A stretch of DNA of 64,000 nt from Bacilli bacterium (GTDB lineage: Bacteria; Bacillota_I; Bacilli_A; RF39; UBA660), in the NCBI GenBank assembly GCA_017936845.1, contig JAGBES010000023.1, positions 26,720-90,719 on the forward strand, given 5' to 3'. Numbering within the stretch: the stretch's first letter is position 1; every line of letters begins with the position of its first letter. Of the stretch, positions 18,341 through 61,667 are shown piece by piece. Made by a program: the position numbers and the translations under genes. Under the pieces are notes generated by a model. It had not been told where the DNA came from. It searched no databases and was given only the letters and a program-made list of their open reading frames with translations.

Positions 18341-18523
18341 CTAAAGACTTATTATTTTCTTTAATTTTTTATTAAAGTCTATTCTCGGCATCATAATGCT
18401 TCTACCACAATTTTTGCATTTAATTTTTATATCTGCACCTAATCTTATTATTTCCCATTCATTTGTTCCACATGGATGTTGTTTTTTCATCATAACAATA
18501 CTACCTAATTTATACTCTTGCAT
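18341..18523 (-). CDS. DUF951 family small protein (YyzM-like, 4 Cys)
   Basis: 60 aa with HPCG...CKNCG, in the conserved position next to ychF, as in Bacillus. Confidence 0.7.
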   Translation of the reverse strand: MQEYKLGSIVMMKKQHPCGTNEWEIIRLGADIKIKCKNCGRSIMMPRIDFNKKLKKIISL

Positions 18524-19313
18524 TATGAACCACCACCTGATTATATGGAATTTCTATTTTTTGTTTATCAAATTCTAATTTTATTTGTTTTAAAACTTCT
18601 CTTTTTAAATCATATTGTTTCATAGGTTTTGTTTTGATCATTATTCTAAAATTAATCGAAGATGAATCAAGTTTTTCTATTCCTAATACTTGAATATCTA
18701 ATAAATCTTTATTATCATTTATTAGGTTTGAATTTATATTATTCAATACTTTTTCTACTTTTTCTATATTTGAATTATATGATACAGGTACATCAATAAA
18801 TTCATATGCATCATCTAAACTATGATTTATAACATCTGTTATATTACTATTTGAAATCATTTTAATATCACCTGTTATTGATTGAATCTTTGTTGTTTTT
18901 AATCCTAAGCTAATTACTTTACCTTTGAAATCACCTATTGTTACCGTATCACCGACTGCATATTCATTTTCAAATATGATTGAAAATCCTGCTAACAAAT
19001 CTTTTAGTGTATCTTGAAAAGCAAGACCAGCTACTAATCCAACAACACCAAGTGAAGTAATTATTCCTTTTGTTGATATATTATATACTTCTAAAATTGA
19101 TAAAAAACAAAAAATCAAAATAATATATTTTAATATATTATTTATCAAACTACAAATAGTTTTAGATCTTCTTTTATCCATTCTATTTAATCTTGATTTA
19201 AACATTCCTTTTATAGAATTTGTTAAAATAATATAAACAAATATACCAATTAGAATAATTATAATTGGATAAACTACTTCCTTTATTAAAACAATATCAA
19301 GTAATTTTTTCAT
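18510..19313 (-). CDS. small-conductance mechanosensitive channel (MscS family)
   Basis: 267 aa with N-terminal TM helices followed by an MscS beta-domain (GDTVTIGDFKGKVISLGLKTTKIQ). Confidence 0.8.
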   Translation of the reverse strand: MKKLLDIVLIKEVVYPIIIILIGIFVYIILTNSIKGMFKSRLNRMDKRRSKTICSLINNILKYIILIFCFLSILEVYNISTKGIITSLGVVGLVAGLAFQDTLKDLLAGFSIIFENEYAVGDTVTIGDFKGKVISLGLKTTKIQSITGDIKMISNSNITDVINHSLDDAYEFIDVPVSYNSNIEKVEKVLNNINSNLINDNKDLLDIQVLGIEKLDSSSINFRIMIKTKPMKQYDLKREVLKQIKLEFDKQKIEIPYNQVVVHNARV

Positions 19314-19318
19314 TTAAC

Positions 19319-20197
19319 CTACTCCTTAATGTTTAATACTTCTAGTATTCTATTTAAATCTGCTATATTAGTAAAAGATATTTCTACTTTATTTTCTTTT
19401 ACTACTACTCTTGTATCTAATTTATCTCTTAATATTTCTTCTACATATTTAAATTCATTGTTTTTTTCTTTTCTTATAGTTGGCTTTTTCTTTTTTTCTT
19501 CACTGCTAACTCTTTCAATATCTCGAACTGTTAAATCTTCATTTACTATTTTATTAGCAAGTTCTAGTATTTTATCATTATCTTCAAGTTTGCTAAGCAT
19601 TCTAGCATGGCCCATAGTTAAATTACCTTGGATAACCATTTTTTGAACTTCTTTTGGTAATCTAAGTAAACCTAAAATATTAGTGATATGACTTCTACTT
19701 TTCCCTACTTTTTTTGATAATTCATCTTGTGTTAAATTTAATTTTTCTATCATTGATTTATAAGCAATTGCTTCCTCTATTACATTTAAATTTTCTCTTT
19801 GTAAATTTTCTAGAAGTGCAATTTCCATCATTTGTGTATCACTAAATTCTCTTATAATAGCAGGTATCTTATTTAAACCAGCTAATTTAGAAGCCCTTAC
19901 TCTTCTTTCGCCTGCTATTATTTCATATCCTTTTATACTCTTCTTTACAATTATTGGTTGAAAGACTCCATGTTCTTTTATTGATTCTGATAATTCTTTT
20001 AATGCTTCATCATCAAATATTTTTCTTGGTTGATATGGATTTGGTCTTAGTTCATCTAAATTTATCTCTATTATTTCTTCATTTGTTGATTCTTCATATA
20101 TTGTTCTTTCCATTTGATCTAAGTCTAGATTTTCACCATTAAATAGTTGTTCTAATCCTCTACCTAGTGCCCTTTTTTTATTCTCCATTTCTATCAA
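19319..20197 (-). CDS. parB: chromosome partitioning protein ParB (Spo0J)
   Basis: ParB box GERRVRAS, an HTH, and a start that overlaps the parA 3' end. Confidence 0.92.
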   Translation of the reverse strand: MIEMENKKRALGRGLEQLFNGENLDLDQMERTIYEESTNEEIIEINLDELRPNPYQPRKIFDDEALKELSESIKEHGVFQPIIVKKSIKGYEIIAGERRVRASKLAGLNKIPAIIREFSDTQMMEIALLENLQRENLNVIEEAIAYKSMIEKLNLTQDELSKKVGKSRSHITNILGLLRLPKEVQKMVIQGNLTMGHARMLSKLEDNDKILELANKIVNEDLTVRDIERVSSEEKKKKPTIRKEKNNEFKYVEEILRDKLDTRVVVKENKVEISFTNIADLNRILEVLNIKE

Positions 20198-20963
20198 TCA
20201 CTTCCTTAGCTAAATTAATATATGCTTCTGTTCCTCTACTTGTTGGATCATAAGCTAATATTGGTTTTCCATGACTTGGTGACTCTGATAGTTTTACAAG
20301 TCTTGGAATTATTGTATCATATACTTTATCTGTAAAATAGCTTTTTATATCTTCTACTACTTCTAGACCTAAATTAGTTCTAGCATCTAACATTGTAAGC
20401 AATACACCTTCTATACTAAGTGTCGGATTTAGATTCTTTTGAGCTAATCTTATTGTATTTAATAATTGCATTATTCCCTCTAAAGCGAAAAATTCACATT
20501 GTACTGGAATAATAACTGAATCTGATGCTGTTAATGCATTTGTTGTAAGAATTCCTAAAGAAGGTGGACAATCAATAATTATATAATCAAATACTTCTTT
20601 TGCTTGATCTAAATATTTTTTTAATTGACTTCCCTTTACAAAAGATGGATCCATTTTACTCATTTCCATTAATTCAAAATCAACACCTGCTAAGTTAATA
20701 GTTGCTGGTATTAGATATAAATTTTTAAATTTTGTTTTTATTATTACTTCTTTAATTGTAGCTTCATCTTTTAATAATTCATATATACTTTTATCATAAT
20801 CAGTTTTGCTTATACCTACTCCTGTTGTTGAATTACCTTGAGGATCTAAATCAACTAAAAGTACTTTCTTTTTTAATACTCCTAATGATGCAGCAAGATT
20901 TATACTTGATGTTGTTTTACCAACACCACCTTTTTGATTAACTAAAGCAATAATTTTTCCCAT
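20178..20963 (-). CDS. parA: chromosome partitioning ATPase ParA (Soj)
   Basis: A deviant Walker A, KGGVGKTT. 261 aa. Confidence 0.93.
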   Translation of the reverse strand: MGKIIALVNQKGGVGKTTSSINLAASLGVLKKKVLLVDLDPQGNSTTGVGISKTDYDKSIYELLKDEATIKEVIIKTKFKNLYLIPATINLAGVDFELMEMSKMDPSFVKGSQLKKYLDQAKEVFDYIIIDCPPSLGILTTNALTASDSVIIPVQCEFFALEGIMQLLNTIRLAQKNLNPTLSIEGVLLTMLDARTNLGLEVVEDIKSYFTDKVYDTIIPRLVKLSESPSHGKPILAYDPTSRGTEAYINLAKEVIDRNGE

Positions 20964-21034
20964 GTTATCACCATTTTCTACTAATTATCTATTTAATATT
21001 TTATCATATTTTTTTATTATTTTAAAGAGTTTAA

Positions 21035-21074
21035 TCAAAAGAAAAAGAATTAGATATATTTTTCTAATTCTTTT
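21035..21074 (-). terminator. hairpin at the ftsH 3' end (AAAAAGAATTAGA / TCTAATTCTTTTT), a probable terminator
   Basis: A 13-bp inverted repeat spanning the ftsH stop codon, followed by a U-rich tract on the minus transcript. Confidence 0.35.
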
Positions 21075-23038
21075 TGTAATTGTTCTTTAGACATCTTAGT
21101 GTAACCTTTTATTTTATATTCACGAGCTAAATCTTTAAGTTCTGCTAGTGTTAAATCTTCAAGTGATAGTTCTTTAAAATCACTTTCATCTATTTCATCA
21201 TCATCACTAGGTAAACATCCATTTTTTACTAAGTAGTCAATTTGTTCTTTTGTTATTGTTTCACATTCTATTAATGTATTAGCTATTAAATCTAATAATT
21301 TTCTTTCTTTTTTAAGGATTCTAGTAGCTTCTTTGTAACATTCATCTATTATTTTTCTCATTTCTTGATCAATTTCAAAAGCTACTTGTCCTGAGAAATT
21401 ACGACTTTTATTATAATCTCTTCCTAAGAAAACACTACCTTCTTGTTGTTCTAATTGCATAGGTCCTAATGAACTCATACCATATTCTGTAACCATAGCA
21501 CGAGCTATTTTTGTTGCTTGCTCAAAGTCATTATGAGCACCTGTTGAAATTTCACCAATTACTAATTCTTCAGCAACACGACCTCCCATAAGTCCAATTA
21601 TTCTTTCTGTTAATTCTTTTTTAGTTGCTGTAAATCTTTCTTCTTTTGGAAGCATCATTGTATATCCACCTGCATATCCTCTTGGAATAATTGTTATTTT
21701 TTGGACATCATTTGCTCCATCTAATTTTATACCAAGCACTGCATGTCCTGCTTCATGATAAGCAACCATACGTTTTTCTTCGTCTGTATATTTCTTAGAT
21801 TTTTTTGCTGGTCCCATTAATACTCTATCATGAGCTTCATCTATTTCTGACATAGTAATTGCTTTTTTATTTTTTCTTACAGCAAGAAGTGCTGCTTCAT
21901 TTAATAAGTTTTCTAAATCTGCTCCACTAAATCCTACTGTACGACTTGCTATATTGGATAAATTTACATTTTTAGAAAAGATCTTATTTCTTGCATGTAC
22001 AGCAAGTATTTCTTCTCTTCCTTTTTTATCTGGTAAATTTACTTGTACTTGTCTATCAAATCTACCAGGTCTTAAAAGAGCTGGATCAAGTACATCTGGA
22101 CGGTTTGTTGCAGCTATTATTATGATTCCTTCATTTTCACCAAAGCCATCCATTTCAGTTAGTAATTGGTTTAAAGTTTGTTCTCTTTCATCATGTCCTC
22201 CACCAATTCCTGATCCTCTTTGTCTACCAACTGCATCTATTTCATCTATAAAAATTAAACATGGAGCATTATGTTTTGCTTGTTTAAACATATCTCTAAC
22301 ACGACTAGCTCCAACACCTACAAATAATTCAACAAAATCTGAACCACTTATAAAATAGAATGGGACATTGGCTTCTCCAGCTACTGCTCTTGCTAATAAT
22401 GTTTTACCTGTTCCTGGAGGACCAACTAATAATACTCCTTTAGGAATTCTTGCTCCTAATTTTTGAAATTTTTTTGGATCTTTTAAGAAATCAATTAATT
22501 CTTGCACTTCTTCTTTTTCCTCTTTAAGACCAGCAACTTCATTAAAAGTTACTTTTTTACTATCCTCATTTAATCTAGCTCTACTTTTACCAAAATCCAT
22601 TGATTTATTTGCAGAACTCATTTGTCTTGTAATAAAGAAAAATGCTACTCCTATTAATACCACAAAAGGTAAGATATTTAATGCTATATAAAGTAATGTG
22701 CTTGATGATGGATCTGCTGATGTTTTTATTTTAAATTCATTTGCTTCTTCGCCTATTAAAATTTGTGACATAACTTCTTCTGATAGTGGTGCTCTAAGGA
22801 AAAAGTTCTCATCTTTTTGATAATCCTTTAATTTTCCACTTATTTCATATACTTTAGCATTACTTCTTGGAGTAATGTTTATTTCTACTATATTACCTTT
22901 ATTCATTTGATTTATAAATTCATCATAAGTTAAATAATTAGTCTTTTTATTTGTAATATTTATAAAGTATAAAACTCCTAACATTATTAATAAAATCCCT
23001 AAATATGGGGTTAAACCTCTTCTTACTTTTTTATTCAT
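21050..23038 (-). CDS. ftsH: ATP-dependent zinc metalloprotease FtsH
   Basis: 662 aa with an N-terminal TM helix, AAA Walker [12 protein letters not shown], and HEAGH zinc motif. Confidence 0.96.
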
Positions 23039-37562: not shown

Positions 37563-38405
37563 TTAATCACCTCTATGATAAATATTATAAATTTCACTTT
37601 TTACAATATTTCTTTCTTTAGCTACTTTCTTTATTGCTTCTTTTGAATCATATCCTTCTTTAATATATAAATTAACGTGTTCTATAATTGTCAAATTTTC
37701 GTAAGTATTAGTATCTGTATTACCTTCTACTATTAAAACTATTTCTCCTTTTACTTCATCAAGTTCTTTTATTACTTCTTCTATAGTACCTCTATATACT
37801 TCTTCAAATTTTTTTGATATTTCCCGGGAAATACTTATTTGTCTATTTCCCAACACTTCTTTTATATCATTTAAAGTTTTTATAATGCGATGTGGTGCTT
37901 CATAAAAAATCAAAGTTGTTTTTAAATTTTTTATTTCTTCTAGTTCTTTTTTCCTTTTTGAATCTTTACTATTTAAAAAGCCAAAGAAAGTAAATGGACT
38001 AGGATTTATACCTGATACTGTTAAAGCAGGAATAAGAGCAGTTGGACCTGGTAATGATACAACGTTAAAATCATTTTTTATTGCAATTTTAACTAATTCA
38101 TATCCTGGATCACTTATTACTGGTGTTCCCCTATCTGTTACTACTCCAACATTATATCCTTGATTTAAATAATCTAATAATATATTTTCATTTTTTGTTT
38201 CATTATAATTATGACTAGAAATTAACTTTTTATTGATATTTAAATAATTTAATAATTGTCTTGTAACTCTTGTATCTTCTGAAAATATAACTTCTACTTC
38301 TTTTAACACATTTATTGCACGTAATGTTATATCTTCCATATTTCCAATTGGAGTTGGTATCAAATATAATATAGGCTTTTTATTTATATAACTTTTTTGT
38401 GACAT
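37563..38405 (-). CDS. rsmI: 16S rRNA (cytidine1402-2'-O)-methyltransferase
   Basis: TP-methylase fold (LYLIPTPIGN...). 280 aa; a yabC/yraL homolog. Confidence 0.88.
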   Translation of the reverse strand: MSQKSYINKKPILYLIPTPIGNMEDITLRAINVLKEVEVIFSEDTRVTRQLLNYLNINKKLISSHNYNETKNENILLDYLNQGYNVGVVTDRGTPVISDPGYELVKIAIKNDFNVVSLPGPTALIPALTVSGINPSPFTFFGFLNSKDSKRKKELEEIKNLKTTLIFYEAPHRIIKTLNDIKEVLGNRQISISREISKKFEEVYRGTIEEVIKELDEVKGEIVLIVEGNTDTNTYENLTIIEHVNLYIKEGYDSKEAIKKVAKERNIVKSEIYNIYHRGD

Positions 38406-43660: not shown

Positions 43661-43679
43661 ATGTTTCACGTGGAACATT
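43661..43679. repeat. palindromic element copy 1 (ATGTTTCACGTGGAACATT, GG variant)
   Basis: A near-perfect 19-bp palindrome centred on CACGTG, lying between dnaX and tadA. Confidence 0.9.
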
Positions 43680-43704
43680 AAATATTATATTTTTAATAAA
43701 AAAC

Positions 43705-43724
43705 AATGTTTCACGTGAAACATT
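43705..43724. repeat. palindromic element copy 2 (AATGTTTCACGTGAAACATT, a perfect 20-bp palindrome), which also forms the tadA terminator hairpin
   Basis: A perfect palindrome that overlaps the tadA stop. On the minus-strand RNA it is followed by GUUUUUUAUU. Confidence 0.9.
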
Positions 43725-44151
43725 ATCTTATATTTTGAAAAAATTTTTGAATTAAATAAAATATTTGTTTATTTTCTATTTTTTTTATTTCATATTTATT
43801 ATTTTTAAAAATTTTATTATTTTCTATATTTCCAAAATTTTTATTTGAAACAGAATAATATATTTTTTTTATTCTTGACTGAATTATTGCTCCTGAACAC
43901 ATTATACATGGCTCCATTGTTGAATATAATATACAATCATCTAAATGCCACGTTTTTAATTTTTTACAAGCTTTATTGATTGCTAATATTTCAGCATGAT
44001 AAGTAGCTATTTTATTTTTTTCTTTTTTATTATATGCTTTAGCAATTACTTTATCATTTTTTACAATAACACATCCTACAGGAATATCTCCTTTTTTATA
44101 TGCTTTTAATGCTTCTTTATATGCAATTTTAATATATTTTTTATTTTCCAA
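43723..44151 (-). CDS. tadA: tRNA-specific adenosine deaminase
   Basis: CDA zinc motifs HAE...PCIMC. An RBS AGGTGA precedes the TTG at 44151; the ORF track starts at the GTG at 44160. Confidence 0.85.
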   Translation of the reverse strand: MENKKYIKIAYKEALKAYKKGDIPVGCVIVKNDKVIAKAYNKKEKNKIATYHAEILAINKACKKLKTWHLDDCILYSTMEPCIMCSGAIIQSRIKKIYYSVSNKNFGNIENNKIFKNNKYEIKKIENKQIFYLIQKFFQNIR

Positions 44152-44162
44152 TATTATCACCT

Positions 44163-44246
44163 ACAAAAAAAAGCACACACATTTAGAGGCTATTAAGGCT
44201 GCTATCTTCCGATTCTGACCTAGTTCAAACATAAATGTTGTGCCTC
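44163..44246 (-). ncRNA. ffs: small (4.5S-type) signal recognition particle RNA
   Basis: The minus-strand RNA 5'-UUAGAGGCACAACAUUUAUGUUUGAACUAGGUCAGAAUCGGAAGAUAGCAGCCUUAAUAGCCUCUAA...U8 matches the SRP domain IV consensus (E. coli AGGUCAGGUCCGGAAGGAAGCAGCC), with compensatory changes AUC/GAU flanking the GGAA tetraloop. A terminal helix UUAGAGGC/GCCUCUAA closes it. Confidence 0.75.
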
Positions 44247-44250
44247 TAAT

Positions 44251-44279
44251 AATATACATTATTATTATTAATTTTGCAA
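44251..44279 (-). promoter_or_regulatory. SRP RNA promoter (TTGCAA-17-TATATT)
   Basis: Hexamers on the minus strand with a 17-nt spacing; the predicted TSS falls at the 5' end of the UUAGAGGC helix. Confidence 0.5.
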
Positions 44280-44316
44280 TAATTAATATTAATTATATTA
44301 TAAAATATTTATTAAT

Positions 44317-44334
44317 ATGTTTCACGTGAAACAT
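44317..44334. repeat. palindromic element copy 3 (ATGTTTCACGTGAAACAT, a perfect 18-bp palindrome)
   Basis: Lies between gyrA and the SRP RNA promoter. Confidence 0.9.
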
Positions 44335-44355
44335 TATAATTTTTTATTTATATGT

Positions 44356-44374
44356 ATGTTTCACGTGGAACATT
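44356..44374. repeat. palindromic element copy 4 (ATGTTTCACGTGGAACATT, identical to copy 1)
   Basis: A direct repeat of copy 1, 695 bp away. Confidence 0.9.
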
Positions 44375-50041: not shown

Positions 50042-50491
50042 TTATAAATTCTTTCTTTTTCTAAGTACTGATTCCAACATTGTTGCTCTTAAAATTTGAT
50101 TTTGTAATGATTCATAAGAAATATTAACTATTATTTCTTCATTATTATTAAATATAATTTTAGAAGAACCATTAAATTTTTTGTAACTATTTATATTATT
50201 AAGTGATATCCAAAAACAATCTGAAAATCTTGGTGAACTAGTTGGAAAAAAAATAATTTCTCTTGTTTCTTCTACGACAATTGGACATTTATAATTTATT
50301 CCTATTAAATTTTTAGTACCCTCTTGTCTACCTATATATGAACTTCCAAAATACTTACAACTATAATCTACTATTTCAGTTGTTTTTCTTTTAACTATAA
50401 AATTATTATCAATTTCAATAACTTTCGAAATTTTTGAATCAATTGGTATAATAGCTAAAGTATTTATATTTATTTCATAATTTTCTAACAT
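50042..50491 (-). CDS. comK: competence transcription factor ComK homolog
   Basis: 149 aa. SCKYFGSSYIGRQEGT, PIVVEETREIIFFPTSSPRFSDCFWIS and ISYESLQNQILRATML match the conserved ComK blocks SCRFFGSSYAGRKAGT, PPIMVDPSNQIFLFPTLS...CGWIS and ISYNSFENQVYRTAWL. A strong RBS AAAGGGGGAGGTG is present. Confidence 0.75.
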   Translation of the reverse strand: MLENYEININTLAIIPIDSKISKVIEIDNNFIVKRKTTEIVDYSCKYFGSSYIGRQEGTKNLIGINYKCPIVVEETREIIFFPTSSPRFSDCFWISLNNINSYKKFNGSSKIIFNNNEEIIVNISYESLQNQILRATMLESVLRKRKNL

Positions 50492-50571: not shown

Positions 50572-50608
50572 AAAAAAAAATTAAAATTCAACAAATATTG
50601 AATTTTAA
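50572..50608 (-). terminator. dnaN intrinsic terminator
   Basis: The palindrome AATTCAACAAATATTGAATT directly after the stop, followed by UUAAUUUUUUUUU on the minus strand. Confidence 0.6.
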
Positions 50609-51726
50609 TATGTTCTAATTGGAACTATTAATTGAATTAAATCATCATTATTTGGATTTTTAAGAATTATAGGTTTTATTTCTCCATTAAATAATATTTC
50701 TATTTCTTCACTTTCTAATGATTTAATAGCTTCCATCATATATTTTGAACTAAATGATATTTTTATATTATTATTAGTTTTATTATTTATTATTAAATGT
50801 TCTTCTACATTTCCTATTTCAGGAATATTTGAAGATATTATCATATTATTTCCATCTATTTGCATAGTTATTATATTTTTTTCTTCTTCACTTGTTAATA
50901 ATGAAGCTCTATCAATAGCATCAAAATAATCATTAATATTAGCAACTAATTTATTTTCAAATTCTATAGGTATTAATTTAGAAGTATCTGGAAAATTACC
51001 ATTAATAAGTTTACTCATTAAAATAATATTATTAAATTTAAATATTACTTTATTATTAAATATATGCATTTCTAAGTTATCATCGTCTACATTATATAAT
51101 CTAGTTAATTCAACTAAATTCTTTGTAGGAATTATAATATTAATTTCTTCTGGATAAGATTCATTTAATTCTATTTTTTTTCTAGCTAAACGATATGAAT
51201 CAGTAGCTGTACATTCTAATATATTTTCATTTATTTTAAAATTAATACCTGTTAATACTGGTCTTGACTCTTGTGTAGAAGTTGCAAAACTTGTTTGTTT
51301 TATTATATTTGTAAATATTTTTTTTCCTATTTTTAATGGATTTTTACTATCTTCTAATTCTAAATCTGGAAAATCCATAGGATTATTACAATTTAATGTA
51401 AATGAAGAATTATCTGTAGTTATTAAAATTTTATTATCTATTACTTCTTCTATACATATTATAGAATTAGGTAGTTTTCTAACTATTTCATAAATAAATT
51501 TTCCTGATATTAATATATCTCCACATTTTTCTATATTTTCAATATCTTCTTTTTTTATAAATGCTTTTATAGCTATTTCATTATCAGTACTTAATAGATA
51601 TAATCCATCATTAGTTAATTCCATTTTTATACAATTTAATATTGGAATAATATTTTTATTTGATATTCCTTTTATTGCATAATTTAAATATTCCATTAAT
51701 ATATTTTGTTTTATTTCAAATTTCAT
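50605..51726 (-). CDS. dnaN: DNA polymerase III beta sliding clamp
   Basis: 373 aa with a three-domain clamp profile, immediately downstream of dnaA. Confidence 0.93.
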   Translation of the reverse strand: MKFEIKQNILMEYLNYAIKGISNKNIIPILNCIKMELTNDGLYLLSTDNEIAIKAFIKKEDIENIEKCGDILISGKFIYEIVRKLPNSIICIEEVIDNKILITTDNSSFTLNCNNPMDFPDLELEDSKNPLKIGKKIFTNIIKQTSFATSTQESRPVLTGINFKINENILECTATDSYRLARKKIELNESYPEEINIIIPTKNLVELTRLYNVDDDNLEMHIFNNKVIFKFNNIILMSKLINGNFPDTSKLIPIEFENKLVANINDYFDAIDRASLLTSEEEKNIITMQIDGNNMIISSNIPEIGNVEEHLIINNKTNNNIKISFSSKYMMEAIKSLESEEIEILFNGEIKPIILKNPNNDDLIQLIVPIRTY

Positions 51727-51866: not shown

Positions 51867-53213
51867 TTATTTTATTTGATTAATTAGTTTATTAATTTCA
51901 AATTCAAAATTTTGATCTTTTTTTATTTGTTTTTTAATTTTATCGACAGAGTGCATAACAGTTGTATGATCTTTCCCACCAAATTCAATTCCTATTTTAG
52001 TCAGAGGTTCTTCTAAAATAATTCTACAAATATACATTGCAATTTGTCTTGGAAATGCAATTGTACTTACTCTTTTTTTACTTTTTAAGTCTTCAACTTT
52101 TATATTATAATGATTAGCAACTATTTGTTGTACTTGATCTATTTTATTTTTAGAAATAATTGTTTTTGAAAAATAATCTTGTAAAGCTTCAATAGCAAGT
52201 GATAATGTAATATCACTACCATTCATCATTGTTGCATAAGCAACTACTCTAGTGATAGCTCCTTCAAGTTTTCTAATATCTCCAGTACAATTACTAGCAA
52301 TATATTCTTTAACATCTTTAGGAAAACTACTATTTAACATATTAGATTCAATTTTGTTATCAATAATATGCATTCTAAGATCAAAATCAGGTGGAAAAAT
52401 ATTAATTGTTAATCCCCAATTAAATCTTGTTAATAATCTTTCTTCTAATAGTTTTAAATCCTCTGGAGATCTATCAGAAGAAATAATTATTTGTTTATTA
52501 TTTCCGTAAAGATCATTAAAAGTATTAAAAAATTCTTGTTGTGTTTGATTTGCATTTCCTAAATATTGAATATCATCAATTATTAAAACATCAATATCAC
52601 GATATTTCTTTTTAAATATTTCTACATTATCAAAATTATTTTTATTTTTCTTCCTTGTAATTCCAATAAAGTCTTCAACAAATCTTTCACAAGTAACATA
52701 TAAAACTCTCTTATTTTTATTTTGTACAATATAATTTCCAATAGCATGCATTAAATGTGTTTTACCAAGTCCACTTTTTCCATATATAAATAAAGGATTA
52801 TACATTTGTCCAGGATTTTCAGCAACTGCAAGTGCAGTTGCATGAGCAAATTTATTACTTTCACCTACTACAAAATTATCAAAATTATATTTAGATATAA
52901 GATTTGTTTCGAAATTATTATTAGGTACCCCTATTTCATCAGTATTTATTTCTATATTATTTTCTATTTCCTCTTCTAATAAATAATCAAATTTAAAATT
53001 AGAACCAGATATTTCAGTAAATACTTCTTCAATTAAATCATTATAATTTTCTTTTAAATTCTTTTTTTGAATATGCATTGATACAACTACAATAGCTTTA
53101 TTATCAACAATTTTATAAAGTTTTGAATCAGCAAACCAAGTATCATAAGAAATTTTAGAAATTTTAGTTTTTATTTTTTCTAAAAAAATATTCCAAAGCT
53201 TATCAATATCCAT
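51867..53213 (-). CDS. dnaA: chromosomal replication initiator DnaA
   Basis: AAA+ motif GKSGLGKTHL and a C-terminal DNA-binding domain. 448 aa. Confidence 0.96.
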   Translation of the reverse strand: MDIDKLWNIFLEKIKTKISKISYDTWFADSKLYKIVDNKAIVVVSMHIQKKNLKENYNDLIEEVFTEISGSNFKFDYLLEEEIENNIEINTDEIGVPNNNFETNLISKYNFDNFVVGESNKFAHATALAVAENPGQMYNPLFIYGKSGLGKTHLMHAIGNYIVQNKNKRVLYVTCERFVEDFIGITRKKNKNNFDNVEIFKKKYRDIDVLIIDDIQYLGNANQTQQEFFNTFNDLYGNNKQIIISSDRSPEDLKLLEERLLTRFNWGLTINIFPPDFDLRMHIIDNKIESNMLNSSFPKDVKEYIASNCTGDIRKLEGAITRVVAYATMMNGSDITLSLAIEALQDYFSKTIISKNKIDQVQQIVANHYNIKVEDLKSKKRVSTIAFPRQIAMYICRIILEEPLTKIGIEFGGKDHTTVMHSVDKIKKQIKKDQNFEFEINKLINQIK

Positions 53214-59755: not shown

Positions 59756-59851
59756 TTTTTCTTTTTTTATTGAAATTATTTCCCGGAAAATATTGAAAAT
59801 TAAAAAAAAATATAGTATTATTATATGGAATAGGAAAAGGGGAAGATAAAA

Positions 59852-61372
59852 ATGAGAATGAGGAAGGAAGTTTTTATTCTTAGCATTGATGATATTTTAC
59901 CAAATAGATTTCAACCAAGAATAAAATTTGACGAAAAAGCAATTTTAGAATTAGCAGAATCAATAAAAAAACATGGTGTAATACAACCAATTATTGTTAG
60001 AAAAATATCGGATAAATATGAAATAATTGCGGGAGAAAGAAGATATAAAGCAAGTGTTATTGCAGGAAGAAAAACAATACCAGCTATAATAACAGATGTA
60101 GATGATAAAGAGAGTGCTGAAATAGCTTTAATAGAAAATGTTCAAAGACAAGACATGACACCTATAGAAGAAGCAATATCTTATAAAAAAATATTAGATA
60201 TGGGTTATTTAAATCAATCAGAATTAGCTTTAAAATTAGGAAAAACTCAATCAACAATTGCTAATAAATTAAGACTTTTAAATTTATCGGATGAAGTACA
60301 AGAAGCATTATTAGATGAAAAAATATCTGAACGTCATGCAAGATCTTTATTAAGATTACAACAAAAAGATCAAAAAGATGTATTAAATAAGATAATAACA
60401 GAAAGATTAACAGTTAGAAAAACTGATCAATTAATAAATCAAATTTTATCAAATGATAATGATTCAAAAAATAATCAAAATAGTGAAAAAATAATTACAA
60501 AAAATAATCAAATAATAGAAGAAAAAGGTGATAATATGAATAATGAGAATAATAATATAAATAATAGTTTTAATATACCAACAAATCCAATAATAGAAAA
60601 TGAATCAAATTCAAATCCAGGATTTATGAATATATCAGATATAGAAAATAATGCGCAAGATATAAATAATAATCCACAACCTCAAAATAATCCATTTAAT
60701 CCTTTTGGAAACTCACAACCATTTAATCCATTTATGCAACCAACAGAACAACCAATTCAACAAATGGAACAACAAGTTGAACCACAACAATTTAATGAAC
60801 CAATAGCACAAGAAAATAATCAAATGGAACAACCATTTAATCCATTTATGCAACCATTAGAACAACCAACTCAACAAATGGAACAATCAGTAGAACCACA
60901 ACAATTTAATGAACCAATAGCACAAGAAAATAATCAAATGGAGCAACCATTTAATCCATTTATGCAACCAGTAGAACAACCAATTCAACAAATGGAACAA
61001 TCAGCAGAACCACAACAATTTAATGAACCAATAGCACAAGAAAATAATCAAATGGAACAACCATTTAATCCATTTATGCAACCAACAGAACAACCAACTC
61101 AACAAATGGAACAACCATTTAATTCATTTGTTCAATCAACGCCAATTTATGATCAATCTTACTCAGATTATCCATTACCAGAAGATAAAGAATTAACTCC
61201 ATTAATGCCAAATATGCAACAAGAACCAGAAAGAAGAGCTGACTTGAGAACTGTTATTAATATTATAAGAGATTGTACTAATTCAATAGAAGCAATGGGA
61301 TATAAAATAGATGTTGATGAATTAGATTTTGAAAATACATATGAATTTTCAATAAAAATTGAAAAAGAATAA
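59852..61372 (+). CDS. ParB/Noc-family protein (N-terminal ParB domain plus HTH) with a long Q/P/N-rich tandem-repeat linker and a short C-terminal domain
   Basis: The N-terminal 190 aa carry ParB motifs (IIAGERRYKAS, an HTH). Residues ~290-420 consist of three and a half copies of a 38-aa unit (PFNPFMQPxEQPxQQMEQxxEPQQFNEPIAQENNQMEQ). The gene sits in the noc position after rsmG, but without a parA partner. Confidence 0.85.
   Translation: MRMRKEVFILSIDDILPNRFQPRIKFDEKAILELAESIKKHGVIQPIIVRKISDKYEIIAGERRYKASVIAGRKTIPAIITDVDDKESAEIALIENVQRQDMTPIEEAISYKKILDMGYLNQSELALKLGKTQSTIANKLRLLNLSDEVQEALLDEKISERHARSLLRLQQKDQKDVLNKIITERLTVRKTDQLINQILSNDNDSKNNQNSEKIITKNNQIIEEKGDNMNNENNNINNSFNIPTNPIIENESNSNPGFMNISDIENNAQDINNNPQPQNNPFNPFGNSQPFNPFMQPTEQPIQQMEQQVEPQQFNEPIAQENNQMEQPFNPFMQPLEQPTQQMEQSVEPQQFNEPIAQENNQMEQPFNPFMQPVEQPIQQMEQSAEPQQFNEPIAQENNQMEQPFNPFMQPTEQPTQQMEQPFNSFVQSTPIYDQSYSDYPLPEDKELTPLMPNMQQEPERRADLRTVINIIRDCTNSIEAMGYKIDVDELDFENTYEFSIKIEKE
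60719..61114 (+). repeat. 114-bp in-frame tandem repeat, about 3.5 copies at more than 95% identity, inside the ParB/Noc-like gene
   Basis: Units begin at 60719, 60833, 60947 and 61061 (partial), and differ by only a few substitutions. Confidence 0.9.
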
Positions 61373-61424: not shown

Positions 61425-61667
61425 ATGCAAGAAAAAAAAGATTTATATGTTAATGAAGAAGTTTTAAGAAAATGTGGTAAATCAAATGAAGAAATAAAAC
61501 AATTAGCAATAAAAAATGGTAGAGAATTTGCACGACAAAATTATGAAAATTTTAATATACTAGGAAAATTTTACCTTCAAAATTTTATGTTAGGAATTCA
61601 ATTAGAAACACAAAAAATAGAAGAAGAAGAAAAACAATTAGCTGAAGAAAAACCAAAAGCATTATAA
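61425..61667 (+). CDS. hypothetical protein (80 aa)
   Basis: A strong RBS AAGGGAGGA, an intrinsic terminator immediately downstream, and a charged helical sequence. No family recognised. Confidence 0.5.
   Translation: MQEKKDLYVNEEVLRKCGKSNEEIKQLAIKNGREFARQNYENFNILGKFYLQNFMLGIQLETQKIEEEEKQLAEEKPKAL

What the first reader, a model, noticed from the sequence alone, without database searches (positions are those of the whole stretch)
59852..61372. Orphan ParB/Noc paralog next to rsmG carries a recently expanded 38-aa Q/P/N-rich tandem repeat
Its N-terminus is a canonical ParB/Noc DNA-binding module. The middle third is three and a half near-identical 114-bp repeats encoding PFNPFMQP.EQP.QQMEQ..EPQQFNEPIAQENNQMEQ, plus further N/Q/P-rich sequence. 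The repeats are almost identical at the DNA level, which suggests recent or ongoing copy-number change. The gene lies in the noc position, after mnmG-rsmG, but the real parA-parB pair is about 40 kb away on the other strand. It is therefore an unpartnered ParB-family protein with a prion-like or condensate-like low-complexity linker next to oriC.
Basis: seen in the sequence. Interest (0 to 1): 0.65.

Follow-up and report, generated by a model that had tools for sequence, protein, structure and literature searches.

The report
Noc protein with variable repeat linker
This gene is the nucleoid-occlusion (Noc) relative of ParB in an uncultured gut bacterium; it lacks Noc's usual membrane-binding tip and instead has a long floppy acidic linker whose 38-residue "FNPF" repeat changes in copy number between strains.

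Summary
ORF 59852-61372 (+, 506 aa) has ParB_N and HTH_ParB domains. It contains a 114-bp in-frame tandem array (60715-61114, 3.5 copies, 95% identical).

It is a Noc-type paralogue, not Spo0J:
- Its best structural and HMM matches are Noc.
- Its DNA-specificity residues are Q-K-N-R, against Q-K-K-R in Noc and R-x-x-G in ParB.
- A perfect Noc-binding site (NBS) lies in the window, and a one-mismatch NBS abuts the gene's own promoter.
- In 80 related genomes, NBS-like sites occur only upstream of this gene.

The true ParA-ParB pair (20963-19319, minus strand) and four parS sites are also present.

Three features are unusual. The N-terminal amphipathic membrane helix that defines canonical Noc is absent across the family. 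The DNA-binding and dimerisation domains are separated by a roughly 255-aa disordered linker with net charge -32. The linker carries conserved short motifs.

The family is large, with more than 150 clusters at 50% identity, and comes almost entirely from uncultured gut Bacilli/Mycoplasmatota. About half of 192 inspected members carry an internal GKFFNMF motif that resembles the Noc membrane helix. The window's clade has [F/M/I/V]NPF arrays instead, with different periods in different species.

Within a species, protein lengths differ by exact multiples of the repeat unit. Here that is 0.5 to 4.5 copies.

The prion-like reading is weak. Multivalent partner binding by the linker is my favoured reading, but it is inferred and not shown.

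The parts
59778..59791 (.). NBS-like palindrome ATTTCCCGGAAAAT, one mismatch from the Noc-binding site ATTTCCCGGGAAAT. It ends 2 nt before the -35 of the gene's promoter-like site.
   Evidence: 0.16 sites expected by chance in the window. The same position is conserved in L001-L005 and L017. In 80 related loci all 51 NBS-like sites lie within 800 bp upstream of the gene.
59793..59821 (+). Promoter-like site TTGAAA-17-TATTAT, matching 10 of 12 positions.
   Evidence: It is the best-scoring site in the region, but such sites are not above chance in this AT-rich DNA. The -35 and -10 columns are conserved in alignment A3.
59852..61372 (+). Noc-type ParB paralogue, 506 aa. An in-frame stop lies at 59831, so no N-terminal extension is possible.
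59870..60145 (+). ParB N-terminal (CTP-binding) domain, aa 7-98, including GERRYK (G61, E62, R63, R64 invariant in the family).
   Evidence: AF2 pLDDT 70-89.
60149..60445 (+). HTH DNA-binding domain, aa 100-198. Specificity positions are Q133, K139, N144 and R161.
   Evidence: Residue roles are from PMC7383237.
60467..61231 (+). Disordered acidic linker, aa 206-460: Q 46, N 43, P 36, E 31, net charge -32.
   Evidence: AF2 pLDDT below 50 across almost all of it; composition.
60569..60595 (+). Conserved linker island FNIPTNPII, aa 240-248.
   Evidence: Alignments A1 and A2.
60614..60664 (+). Conserved linker island NPGFMNISDIENNAQDI, aa 255-271, with a weak predicted amphipathic helix at 261-267.
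60715..61114 (+). Tandem array of 114 bp (38 aa), 3.5 copies. Each unit starts with an FNPF motif and contains no K or R.
61169..61210 (+). Conserved island YPLPEDKELTPLMP, aa 440-453, just before the C-terminal domain.
61232..61369 (+). C-terminal dimerisation domain, aa 461-506, predicted as helix-strand-strand.
   Evidence: AF2 pLDDT 83-91. On its own it matches positions 210-255 of the Noc profile TIGR04285.
37819..37832 (.). Perfect NBS ATTTCCCGGGAAAT, inside an rsmI-like methylase ORF.
19319..20197 (-). The genuine ParB/Spo0J. Specificity residues are R-I-R-G and the N-terminal ALGRGL peptide is present.
   Evidence: Best PDB hit is B. subtilis Spo0J at 229 bits against Noc at 164 bits.
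20178..20963 (-). ParA/Soj ATPase partner of the genuine ParB.
43662..44372 (.). Four perfect parS sites, at 43662, 43707, 44318 and 44357. These are the targets of the genuine ParB, not of the gene under study.
   Evidence: 0.10 expected by chance.

Best explanation
The ORF is the Noc (nucleoid-occlusion-type ParB paralogue) of an uncultured, very AT-rich (24.6% GC), small-genome gut Bacilli/Mycoplasmatota lineage.

**Shown or strongly supported:**
- It has a CTP-binding ParB N-domain.
- It has an HTH with NBS-type specificity residues Q-K-N-R.
- It has a ParB/Noc C-terminal dimerisation domain.
- Cognate NBS sites are present, including one abutting its own promoter.
- It lacks the N-terminal amphipathic membrane helix of canonical Noc.
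- Its DNA-binding and dimerisation domains are separated by a ~255-aa acidic, disordered linker.
- The centre of that linker is an in-frame 38-aa tandem array. Each unit displays one FNPF motif, and the array gains and loses whole units between strains.

**Inferred mechanism:**
- The protein loads at NBS sites as a CTP-gated clamp, like Noc.
- Its effector end has moved from the N-terminus into the linker.
- In many relatives the linker carries one invariant GKFFNMF motif that resembles the Noc/MinD-type membrane helix.
- In this clade that motif is gone. It is replaced by multivalent [hydrophobic]-NPF arrays on an acidic, proline-rich tether.
- Because the tether is strongly acidic, I think the arrays most likely bind a protein partner by avidity. 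A membrane-associated or division-machinery component is the likeliest candidate, rather than lipid directly.
- This would still couple NBS-marked DNA to the cell periphery or divisome.
- Unequal recombination or slippage between the 114-bp units tunes the valency and reach of the linker.

The confidence of 0.55 is for the whole statement. Identity as a Noc-type, NBS-directed paralogue with a disordered, copy-number-variable linker is about 0.85-0.9. The effector-arm and protein-partner step is about 0.35-0.4.
For: **Identity as Noc-type**
- The top PDB hits are Noc: 7nfu 194 bits, 7ng0 193 and 7ol9 174, against ParB at 166-169. The ParA-adjacent paralogue shows the reverse pattern, Spo0J 229 against Noc 164.
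- TIGR04285 (Noc) is the best NCBIfam model at 287.5 bits. A linker-deleted construct aligns end to end with it (profile 2-255 of 255) at 299.1 bits.
- The specificity residues are Q133, K139, N144 and R161, against R-I-R-G in the in-window ParB. Jalal et al. show that Q173 and R201 switch specificity and that one K at position 179 or 184 suffices (PMC7383237).
- The window holds a perfect NBS at 37819 and a one-mismatch NBS at 59778. In 947 kb from 80 related genomes, all 51 NBS-like sites lie within 800 bp upstream of the gene and none lie elsewhere. The promoter-proximal position is conserved.

**Missing membrane helix**
- An in-frame stop lies 21 nt upstream of the ATG.
- No N-terminal extension carrying an MTS-like sequence is present in 82 loci or in 142 further representatives, and none has the FSRFFG-type N-terminus.
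- The canonical N-termini MKHSFSRFFGLGEKEQE and MKHPFSRLFSFGEKEQE were verified against the PDB.
- That N-terminal helix is conserved and essential in canonical Noc (PMC4331003).

**Linker**
- AF2 gives pLDDT below 50 for aa 205-460, while the flanking domains are confident.
- The family's median linker is ~297 aa.
- The top 150 representatives at 50% identity are all 406-834 aa long.

**Motifs**
- G-x-F-F-N-M-F is invariant in 53 aligned members and present in 99 of 192 non-redundant members. It is nearly exclusive of tandem arrays (Fisher p = 2e-8, not corrected for phylogeny).
- In 24 of 26 species-level repeat consensus units the core NPF is kept, although periods range from 15 to 50 aa. 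The two exceptions are the proteins that retain GRFFGMF.
- NPF is about 5-fold enriched, and hydrophobic-NP[F/Y] about 22-fold enriched, in 88 non-tandem linkers. Permuted tripeptides are not enriched.
- NPF occurs at 0.04 per 1000 aa in the neighbouring ORFs, against 11.9 per 1000 aa in this protein.

**Copy-number variation**
- The flanks are 99.8% and 98.5-99% identical in strains carrying 4.5 and 1.5 units. The extra unit has a private SNP.
- In-species lengths are 392/430/506/544 aa. Two other species show the same pattern with 24-aa and 17-aa units.
Against: - The score stays below the curated Noc cut-off of 315 bits, even after deleting the linker.
- Position 184 is N rather than the near-invariant K of Noc. 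Actual NBS binding has not been tested.
- Many of the upstream NBS sites in relatives lie inside the 3' part of rsmG, so coding constraint may help to conserve them.
- No partner for NPF is known in bacteria. A literature search found none.
- In the broader family, 98 of 142 representatives have no NPF at all. NPF is therefore a sub-clade feature and not a family-wide requirement.
- One in-species allele has only 0.5 units (P0123), so a full array may be dispensable.
- AF2 gives no confident structure or docking for any linker motif.
- Copy numbers come mostly from short-read metagenome assemblies, and some of these break inside the array.
- The motif statistics are inflated by shared ancestry.
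Confidence: 0.55

Rival explanations
1. Neutral repeat turnover. The protein is a Noc-type clamp, but the array is functionally inert. It is slippage- or recombination-prone DNA tolerated in an already long disordered spacer, and any linker of sufficient length would serve.
For: - Periods, spacer sequences and copy numbers differ freely between sister species.
- Alleles from 0.5 to 4.5 copies coexist in one species.
- Most differences between units are non-synonymous.
- Most members of the broader family have no NPF.
Against: - The NPF core is retained in 24 of 26 independently structured repeat units, while everything around it changes.
- NPF is otherwise almost absent from the neighbouring proteome.
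- Arrays appear exactly where the invariant GKFFNMF motif has been lost.
- Linker length stays at or above ~138 aa in all members.
Confidence: 0.27
2. Condensate or prion-like linker. The Q/N/P-rich repeats would drive phase separation of Noc-DNA complexes, with F and M residues as stickers. The result would be a cohesive or brush-like layer around the origin-proximal nucleoid.
For: - Q+N makes up 35% of the linker.
- Aromatic FNPF motifs are regularly spaced in a polar disordered chain.
- AF2 predicts disorder.
- From general knowledge, not tested here: ParB-family proteins are known to form condensate-like foci.
Against: - Proline at 14% and a net charge of -32 with almost no basic residues are atypical for amyloid-type prion domains. 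They also favour self-repulsion.
- Most relatives have non-repetitive linkers that are less rich in Q and N.
- No predictor or experiment was run.
Confidence: 0.12
3. Origin-region regulator rather than division inhibitor. The conserved NBS at its own promoter would mean the protein mainly autoregulates, or organises and silences the rsmG-noc/oriC-proximal region, much like KorB or other ParB-like repressors. The linker would recruit some unrelated factor.
For: - The NBS-like site abuts the -35 and keeps its position across genomes that share only ~45-58% protein identity.
- All 51 NBS-like sites in 80 loci are upstream of the gene.
- The membrane helix needed for nucleoid occlusion in B. subtilis is absent.
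Against: - A second, perfect NBS lies 22 kb away inside an unrelated gene. That fits scattered chromosomal sites.
- The sampled loci cover only about 6 kb either side of the gene, so the genome-wide NBS distribution is unknown.
- Autoregulation and nucleoid occlusion are not mutually exclusive.
Confidence: 0.15
4. It is the ordinary chromosomal ParB/Spo0J or a plasmid-type ParB, or the repeat is an assembly artefact.
For: - It has the ParB_N and HTH_ParB domains plus a standard C-terminal domain.
- Some short-read assemblies break in the array.
Against: - A separate R..G-type ParB with the LGRGL peptide sits beside ParA, and four parS sites are present.
- The gene under study carries Q and R at the specificity-switching positions.
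- The array recurs with consistent unit-specific SNPs in more than 10 independent assemblies, and it stays in frame in every full-length version.
Confidence: 0.03

Closest known systems
Noc of Bacillus subtilis and Geobacillus thermoleovorans (TIGR04285; PDB 7ol9, 7nfu, 7ng0, 6y93)
   Same: - It occupies the same position after rsmG.
- It has no ParA partner.
- It shares the ParB_N CTP-binding domain with GERRxR.
- Its HTH carries Q and R at the specificity-switching positions and K at position 179.
- NBS palindromes are present in the genome.
- It has the C-terminal dimerisation domain.
- These Noc proteins are the best hits in the PDB and in NCBIfam.
   Different: - There is no N-terminal amphipathic membrane-targeting helix or spacer; about 25 residues are missing.
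- A ~255-aa acidic disordered insertion separates the DNA-binding and C-terminal domains. The canonical profile is 255 positions in total.
- Position 184 is N instead of K.
- The score falls below the curated cut-off.
- The linker contains a copy-number-variable tandem array.
Chromosomal ParB/Spo0J (PDB 6sdk, 1vz0, 4umk)
   Same: It has the same fold and domain order, and it is presumed to share the CTP-gated clamp chemistry.
   Different: - It lacks the R173/G201 parS-specific residues.
- It has no LGRGL ParA-contact peptide.
- It has no adjacent parA.
- The genome has a separate bona fide ParB and parS sites.
MinD/Noc-type short amphipathic membrane-targeting sequences
   Same: About half of 192 inspected family members carry an invariant G-[K/R]-F-F-N-M-F followed by acidic residues. 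This resembles S-R-F-F-G-L-G-E-K-E at the Noc N-terminus and has a comparable hydrophobic moment, 0.43-0.51 against 0.56-0.60.
   Different: - The motif is internal, sitting in the middle of a disordered linker rather than at a terminus.
- It is absent from the window protein itself.
- The resemblance is a short-motif lead, not demonstrated homology or membrane binding.
Eukaryotic multivalent NPF-motif tails (Eps15/epsin-type adaptors binding EH domains) and FG-repeat nucleoporins; analogy only, from general knowledge
   Same: Both have arrays of short aromatic motifs spaced along a polar, proline-rich disordered chain. The motif is conserved while the spacers drift.
   Different: - No EH-domain or other NPF receptor is known or was found in bacteria.
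- This is a bacterial, cytoplasmic DNA-clamp context.
- This is an analogy of architecture only.
SlmA, the nucleoid occlusion factor of E. coli; analogy only, from general knowledge
   Same: It is a DNA-site-specific factor that blocks division over the nucleoid by contacting a division protein directly. That is the kind of mechanism a helix-less Noc might need.
   Different: SlmA has an unrelated TetR fold. No evidence here shows that the linker contacts FtsZ.

Membership tests
Noc (nucleoid occlusion protein, TIGR04285) | ParB-type N-terminal CTP-binding domain with the GERRxR box | tested here: met
   ParB_N has E 2e-33. G61, E62, R63 and R64 are invariant in the family.
Noc (nucleoid occlusion protein, TIGR04285) | NBS-type specificity residues Q173/K179/K184/R201 (Caulobacter ParB numbering) | tested here: met
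   The residues are Q133, K139, N144 and R161, so 3 of 4 match and both specificity-switching residues are present. One K at position 179 or 184 is sufficient according to PMC7383237. Binding itself was not measured.
Noc (nucleoid occlusion protein, TIGR04285) | Cognate NBS palindromes in the genome | tested here: met
   One perfect and one single-mismatch site lie in 64 kb, against 0.16 expected. In 80 related genomes, 51 of 51 NBS-like sites lie upstream of the gene. The genome-wide distribution was not testable.
Noc (nucleoid occlusion protein, TIGR04285) | N-terminal amphipathic membrane-targeting helix (aa ~1-10), conserved and essential in canonical Noc | tested here: not met
   The protein starts MRMRKEVFIL, directly at strand beta-1, and an in-frame stop lies at 59831. 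No such N-terminus is seen in 82 loci or in 142 representatives. The reference sequences are and the functional role from PMC4331003.
Noc (nucleoid occlusion protein, TIGR04285) | Score above the curated whole-protein cut-off of 315 bits | tested here: not met
   The native protein scores 287.5 bits. The linker-deleted construct scores 299.1 bits and aligns end to end.
Noc (nucleoid occlusion protein, TIGR04285) | C-terminal dimerisation domain | tested here: met
   AF2 predicts helix-strand-strand at pLDDT 83-91. The domain matches Noc profile positions 210-255.
Noc (nucleoid occlusion protein, TIGR04285) | Position downstream of rsmG (gidB) near oriC, with no cognate ParA | tested here: met
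Noc (nucleoid occlusion protein, TIGR04285) | [quoted passage not shown] | not testable with these tools
   This needs biochemistry and cell biology.
Chromosomal ParB/Spo0J | parS-specific residues R173 and G201 | tested here: not met
   These positions hold Q133 and R161. The other in-window paralogue has R and G.
Chromosomal ParB/Spo0J | Adjacent parA and an N-terminal LG(R/K)GL ParA-stimulating peptide | tested here: not met
   The neighbours are rsmG and an 80-aa ORF followed by uvrB. The ALGRGL peptide is present only in the protein encoded at 19319-20197.
Prion-like (Q/N-rich) domain | Q/N-rich composition with few charged residues and few prolines | tested here: inconclusive
   Q+N is 35%, but proline is 14% and there are 37 acidic residues, giving net charge -32. 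No PLAAC-type predictor was available.
Protein-coding VNTR (in-frame variable tandem repeat) | Unit length is a multiple of 3, with whole-unit copy-number differences between otherwise near-identical strains | tested here: met
   The unit is 114 bp. Alleles of 4.5, 3.5, 1.5 and 0.5 copies occur with flanks 98.5-99.8% identical. The same pattern holds in two other species. Caveat: these are short-read assemblies.

The most novel reading that the evidence does not exclude
A large uncultured clade of Bacilli has re-engineered nucleoid occlusion. Noc has lost its membrane helix. It acts instead through a long acidic disordered arm whose multivalent hydrophobic-NPF motifs (or a single internal GKFFNMF motif in relatives) either engage the division machinery directly or form a steric, cohesive brush around NBS-marked DNA. 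Direct engagement could target FtsZ, FtsA or SepF, which would be a SlmA-like mode evolved on a ParB scaffold. Strain-level copy-number changes would then tune division control. This would be the first bacterial NPF-type linear-motif system and a membrane-independent Noc mechanism.
Probability: 0.2. Interest if true: 0.8.

Novelty: new variant of a known kind. Interest (0 to 1): 0.55.

Why it matters
Current models of Noc rest on three parts: a CTP-gated DNA clamp, an N-terminal amphipathic helix that ties DNA to the membrane, and short linkers. Here a large natural family keeps the clamp and the NBS specificity but has no N-terminal helix. The family has more than 150 clusters at 50% identity and hundreds of gut species.

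In place of the helix there is a 140-490-aa disordered arm between the DNA-binding and dimerisation domains. The arm carries either an internal helix-like motif or expandable NPF arrays.

This gives a natural experiment on two questions. The first is which part of Noc really delivers nucleoid occlusion. The second is whether the effector can be moved, multiplied or exchanged. It also provides a clean example of an in-frame variable repeat inside a core chromosome-maintenance gene, and of an NBS conserved at the noc promoter.

The organisms are uncultured, so the value is mainly as a source of testable chimeras in B. subtilis.

Tried and rejected
- **Linker domains.** Pfam and NCBIfam found no domain in the linker or in the downstream 80-aa ORF.
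- **Structure prediction.** AF2 was run on the window protein (24-sequence alignment) and on a GRFFNMF-bearing relative (53-sequence alignment). The linkers are disordered. Only weak helices or hairpins appear at the conserved islands (pLDDT ~45-65), and no confident docking is seen. I therefore ran no fold search.
- **Linker-deleted construct.** I tested whether the insertion alone kept the score below the Noc cut-off. It does not: 299.1 bits against 315.
- **Hidden N-terminal helix.** I looked for one through upstream alternative starts in 82 loci and found none.
- **Literature.** I searched for long-linker Noc, Noc in Mollicutes, ParB low-complexity linkers and bacterial NPF motifs. Nothing relevant turned up.
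- **Downstream ORF.** A tblastn search of the 80-aa ORF against all loci shows it is conserved only within the same species.
- **DNA-level role for the repeat.** I considered one, such as DnaA boxes or NBS half-sites inside the unit. None is visible by eye. Sister species keep the peptide motif but not the DNA sequence, so I rejected this.
- **Frameshift phase variation.** Rejected, because the unit is a multiple of 3 and all full-length alleles stay in frame.
- **Direct lipid binding by the array.** Judged unlikely, because the repeat has no K or R and a net charge of -20.
- **Resemblance to the FtsZ C-terminal peptide.** The FNIPTxPI island looks somewhat like DIPTFL in the FtsZ C-terminal peptide. 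This is from memory only, was not tested, and is not relied on.
Full report
**1. Observation**

The ORF at 59852-61372 (+) encodes 506 aa. Pfam finds ParB_N (aa 7-98) and HTH_ParB (aa 100-198) and nothing further.

Tandem Repeats Finder reports a 114-bp unit, 3.5 copies, at 60715-61114. It has 95% matches, no indels and a score of 723. No other array in the 64-kb window scores above 118.

The three full units differ at 4-7 nucleotides, and the variable amino-acid positions are four codons. The other 34 codons encode the same residues in all three units and, apart from one synonymous change in the last codon, are identical at DNA level.

The window has 24.6% GC and spans the replication origin region:
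- dnaA lies at 51867-53213 (-).
- rnpA, yidC, jag, mnmE, mnmG and rsmG run rightward, ending just before the gene.
- A ParA-ParB pair sits at 20963-19319 (-), about 40 kb away.

**2. Which ParB-family protein is it?**

Four lines of evidence point to Noc-type.

*Reciprocal structure-database hits.* The gene's product hits Noc best, with 7nfu at 194 bits, 7ng0 at 193 and 7ol9 at 174, against 166-169 for ParBs. The ParA-adjacent protein hits B. subtilis Spo0J best, at 229 bits against 164 for Noc.

*NCBIfam.* The Noc model TIGR04285 is the top hit at 287.5 bits, covering profile positions 2-218. The isolated C-terminal 57 aa match positions 210-255. A construct with the linker removed aligns end to end at 299.1 bits. 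That is still below the curated 315-bit cut-off.

*Specificity residues.* Jalal et al. showed that four residues set parS against NBS specificity. ParB has R173, x179, x184 and G201. Noc has Q, K, K and R. Q173 and R201 are the switching residues, and one lysine at 179 or 184 is sufficient (PMC7383237). The window protein has Q133, K139, N144 and R161. The ParA-adjacent protein has R-I-R-G and the N-terminal ALGRGL ParA-contact peptide.

*DNA sites.*
- Both site types are present in the window: four perfect parS at 43662-44372, a perfect NBS at 37819-37832, and a one-mismatch NBS at 59778-59791.
- The one-mismatch NBS ends 2 nt before the -35 of the best promoter-like site upstream of the gene.
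- I scanned 947 kb from 80 related genomes. It contains 51 NBS-like sites with two or fewer mismatches. All of them lie within 800 bp upstream of the orthologous gene, in 48 of 80 loci, and none lie elsewhere.
- Some of these sites sit at the same promoter-proximal position as in the window. Others lie inside the 3' part of rsmG.

So the protein is Noc-type, and being 'unpartnered' is the normal state for Noc.

**3. How it differs from canonical Noc**

*The N-terminal membrane helix is absent.*
- Adams et al. found the first ~15 residues extremely conserved in all Noc proteins they examined. Deleting 10 residues abolishes membrane binding and function (PMC4331003).
- I verified the canonical N-termini against the PDB: MKHSFSRFFGLGEKEQE and MKHPFSRLFSFGEKEQE.
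- The window protein starts MRMRKEVFIL, directly at the first strand of the ParB N-domain. An in-frame stop lies 21 nt upstream of the ATG.
- None of 82 loci has an N-terminal extension carrying such a sequence.
- In 142 further representatives the conserved PNRFQPR motif starts 12-19 residues from the N-terminus in all but four (two start at 23 and 31, and two carry a variant of the motif). None has the FSRFFG-type N-terminus.

*A long disordered linker separates the two folded parts.*
- The DNA-binding and dimerisation domains are about 255 aa apart.
- AF2 predicts this stretch as disordered, with pLDDT below 50. Residues 1-205 and 465-504 are confident.
- The linker contains 46 Q, 43 N, 36 P and 31 E. 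It has 37 acidic and 5 basic residues, for a net charge of -32. The repeat region has no K or R.

**4. The family**

Homologues are abundant. The top 150 representatives at 50% identity are all 406-834 aa long and still score above 478 bits.

The genomes are almost all uncultured gut 'Bacilli', 'Tenericutes', 'Mollicutes' or 'Mycoplasmatota' MAGs. Hosts include ruminants, rabbits, mice, chickens and humans. One is a circular 1.26-Mb chromosome. Assigning them to an order such as RF39 would be my inference only.

The window protein equals MBP3461681.1 (a 'Bacilli bacterium' MAG) from residue 3 onward.

Among 192 non-redundant members the linker is 138-487 aa, with a median of 297.

Conserved islands punctuate the linker:
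- FNIPxxPI
- NPGFMDIxxIExxAxDI
- YPLPExxELTPLMP, in the close clade

About half of the members (99 of 192) carry one G-[K/R]-F-F-N-M-F motif followed by acidic residues. G, F, F, M and F are invariant in 53 aligned sequences. The motif resembles the S-R-F-F-G-L-G-E-K-E core of the Noc helix and has a similar hydrophobic moment. This is a lead, not proof of homology or of membrane binding.

**5. The repeats**

The window's clade lacks that motif and carries tandem arrays instead: 31 of 34 array-bearing proteins lack it. Fisher's test gives p = 2e-8, but this probably reflects one or a few evolutionary events.

Across about 25 species the arrays have periods of 15-50 aa and 1.6-12.6 copies, with unrelated spacers. 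Even so, 24 of 26 unit consensus sequences keep a [F/M/I/V]NPF core. The two exceptions are the proteins that still have GRFFGMF.

The head of the window unit, FNPFMQPTE, matches P0022's FGMFNQPTS at 5 of 9 positions. This suggests the unit may derive from that motif, but that is inference.

NPF is otherwise rare:
- All six occurrences in the window's 73 ORFs are in this protein.
- Neighbouring ORFs in the 82 loci have 0.04 per 1000 aa, against 11.9 per 1000 aa here.
- In 88 non-tandem linkers of close relatives, NPF is about 5-fold enriched and hydrophobic-NP[F/Y] about 22-fold enriched over shuffles. Permuted tripeptides are not enriched.

In the wider family, however, 98 of 142 representatives have no NPF. 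NPF is therefore a sub-clade feature.

**6. Copy-number variation**

- Contig L081 has flanks 99.84% identical to the window and one more unit, which carries a private SNP.
- Contig L082 has flanks 98.5-99% identical and two fewer units.
- Members of the same 90%-identity cluster are 392, 430, 506 and 544 aa long, corresponding to 0.5, 1.5, 3.5 and 4.5 copies.
- Alleles of equal length differ in which units they contain, which points to independent events.
- Two other species show the same pattern: 404/476/500/524 aa with a 24-aa unit, and 478/512/580/597/614 aa with a 17-aa unit.

There is a caveat. These are mostly short-read assemblies, and some break inside the array (fragments P0124, P0126 and P0127). 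Exact counts need long reads.

**7. Mechanism**

I take the CTP-gated loading at NBS and the C-terminal dimerisation from homology with Noc. I infer that the effector function, which in canonical Noc is the N-terminal helix, has moved into the linker.

The array is strongly acidic, proline-rich and free of basic residues. Direct binding to anionic lipid therefore seems unlikely. A multivalent display of NPF motifs for a protein partner fits better with a conserved motif, drifting spacers and variable valency.

The rivals are:
- neutral turnover in a tolerant spacer
- a condensate or brush role
- a mainly autoregulatory or origin-organising role

None of these is excluded. The ordinary-Spo0J reading and the assembly-artefact reading are effectively excluded.

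**8. Novelty**

I found no paper describing Noc homologues without the N-terminal helix, with long linkers, or with NPF arrays.

The protein fails two membership tests for canonical Noc, namely the N-terminal helix and the curated score. It passes the DNA-specificity, NBS, C-terminal domain and synteny tests. I classify it as a new variant of a known kind.

Noticed in passing
window 43662-43722 and 44318-44372: Four perfect parS sites (TGTTNCACGTGAAACA) lie in two tandemly duplicated pairs. They flank a tadA-like deaminase ORF (43723-44160, -) between dnaX and gyrA, about 8-9 kb from dnaA. This looks like a compact centromere cluster.
   Followed up: partly
window 37819-37832: A perfect 14-bp Noc-binding site, ATTTCCCGGGAAAT, lies inside an rsmI-like (TP_methylase) ORF at 37563-38405 (-).
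   Followed up: partly
L016, L030, L046-L048, L053, L054, L059, L066, L076 (about 280-320 bp upstream of the noc-like gene): In L053 a perfect NBS is embedded in the 3' part of the rsmG coding sequence, where it encodes G-N-I-S-R-E-I. The other listed relatives have a perfect NBS at the same distance upstream of the noc-like gene, which I assume falls in rsmG too (only L053 was inspected). L053 also has an inverted half-site arrangement, GGGAAATATTTCCC, in the intergenic promoter region.
   Followed up: partly
window 50042-50491 (-): A ComK-family ORF (PF06338, E 2e-44) sits among the origin-proximal replication genes next to dnaN (50605-51726). This is unexpected in such a small, AT-rich genome.
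   Followed up: no
window 61425-61667 (+): An 80-aa ORF lies directly downstream of the noc-like gene. It has no Pfam or NCBIfam match. It is conserved (99-100%) only in same-species contigs and is absent from the 80 other loci by tblastn.
   Followed up: yes
window 18510-23038 (-): The soj-spo0J pair has moved away from noc, unlike the rsmG-noc-soj-spo0J order in B. subtilis. It now sits between ftsH and an mscS-like channel gene on the other replichore.
   Followed up: partly
representative proteins P0150-P0291: A few family representatives have Q-T-N-R, Q-T-T-R or Q-T-G-R at the four specificity positions. They have no lysine or arginine at either permissive position. According to PMC7383237 that combination is non-functional in the Caulobacter ParB background.
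   Followed up: no
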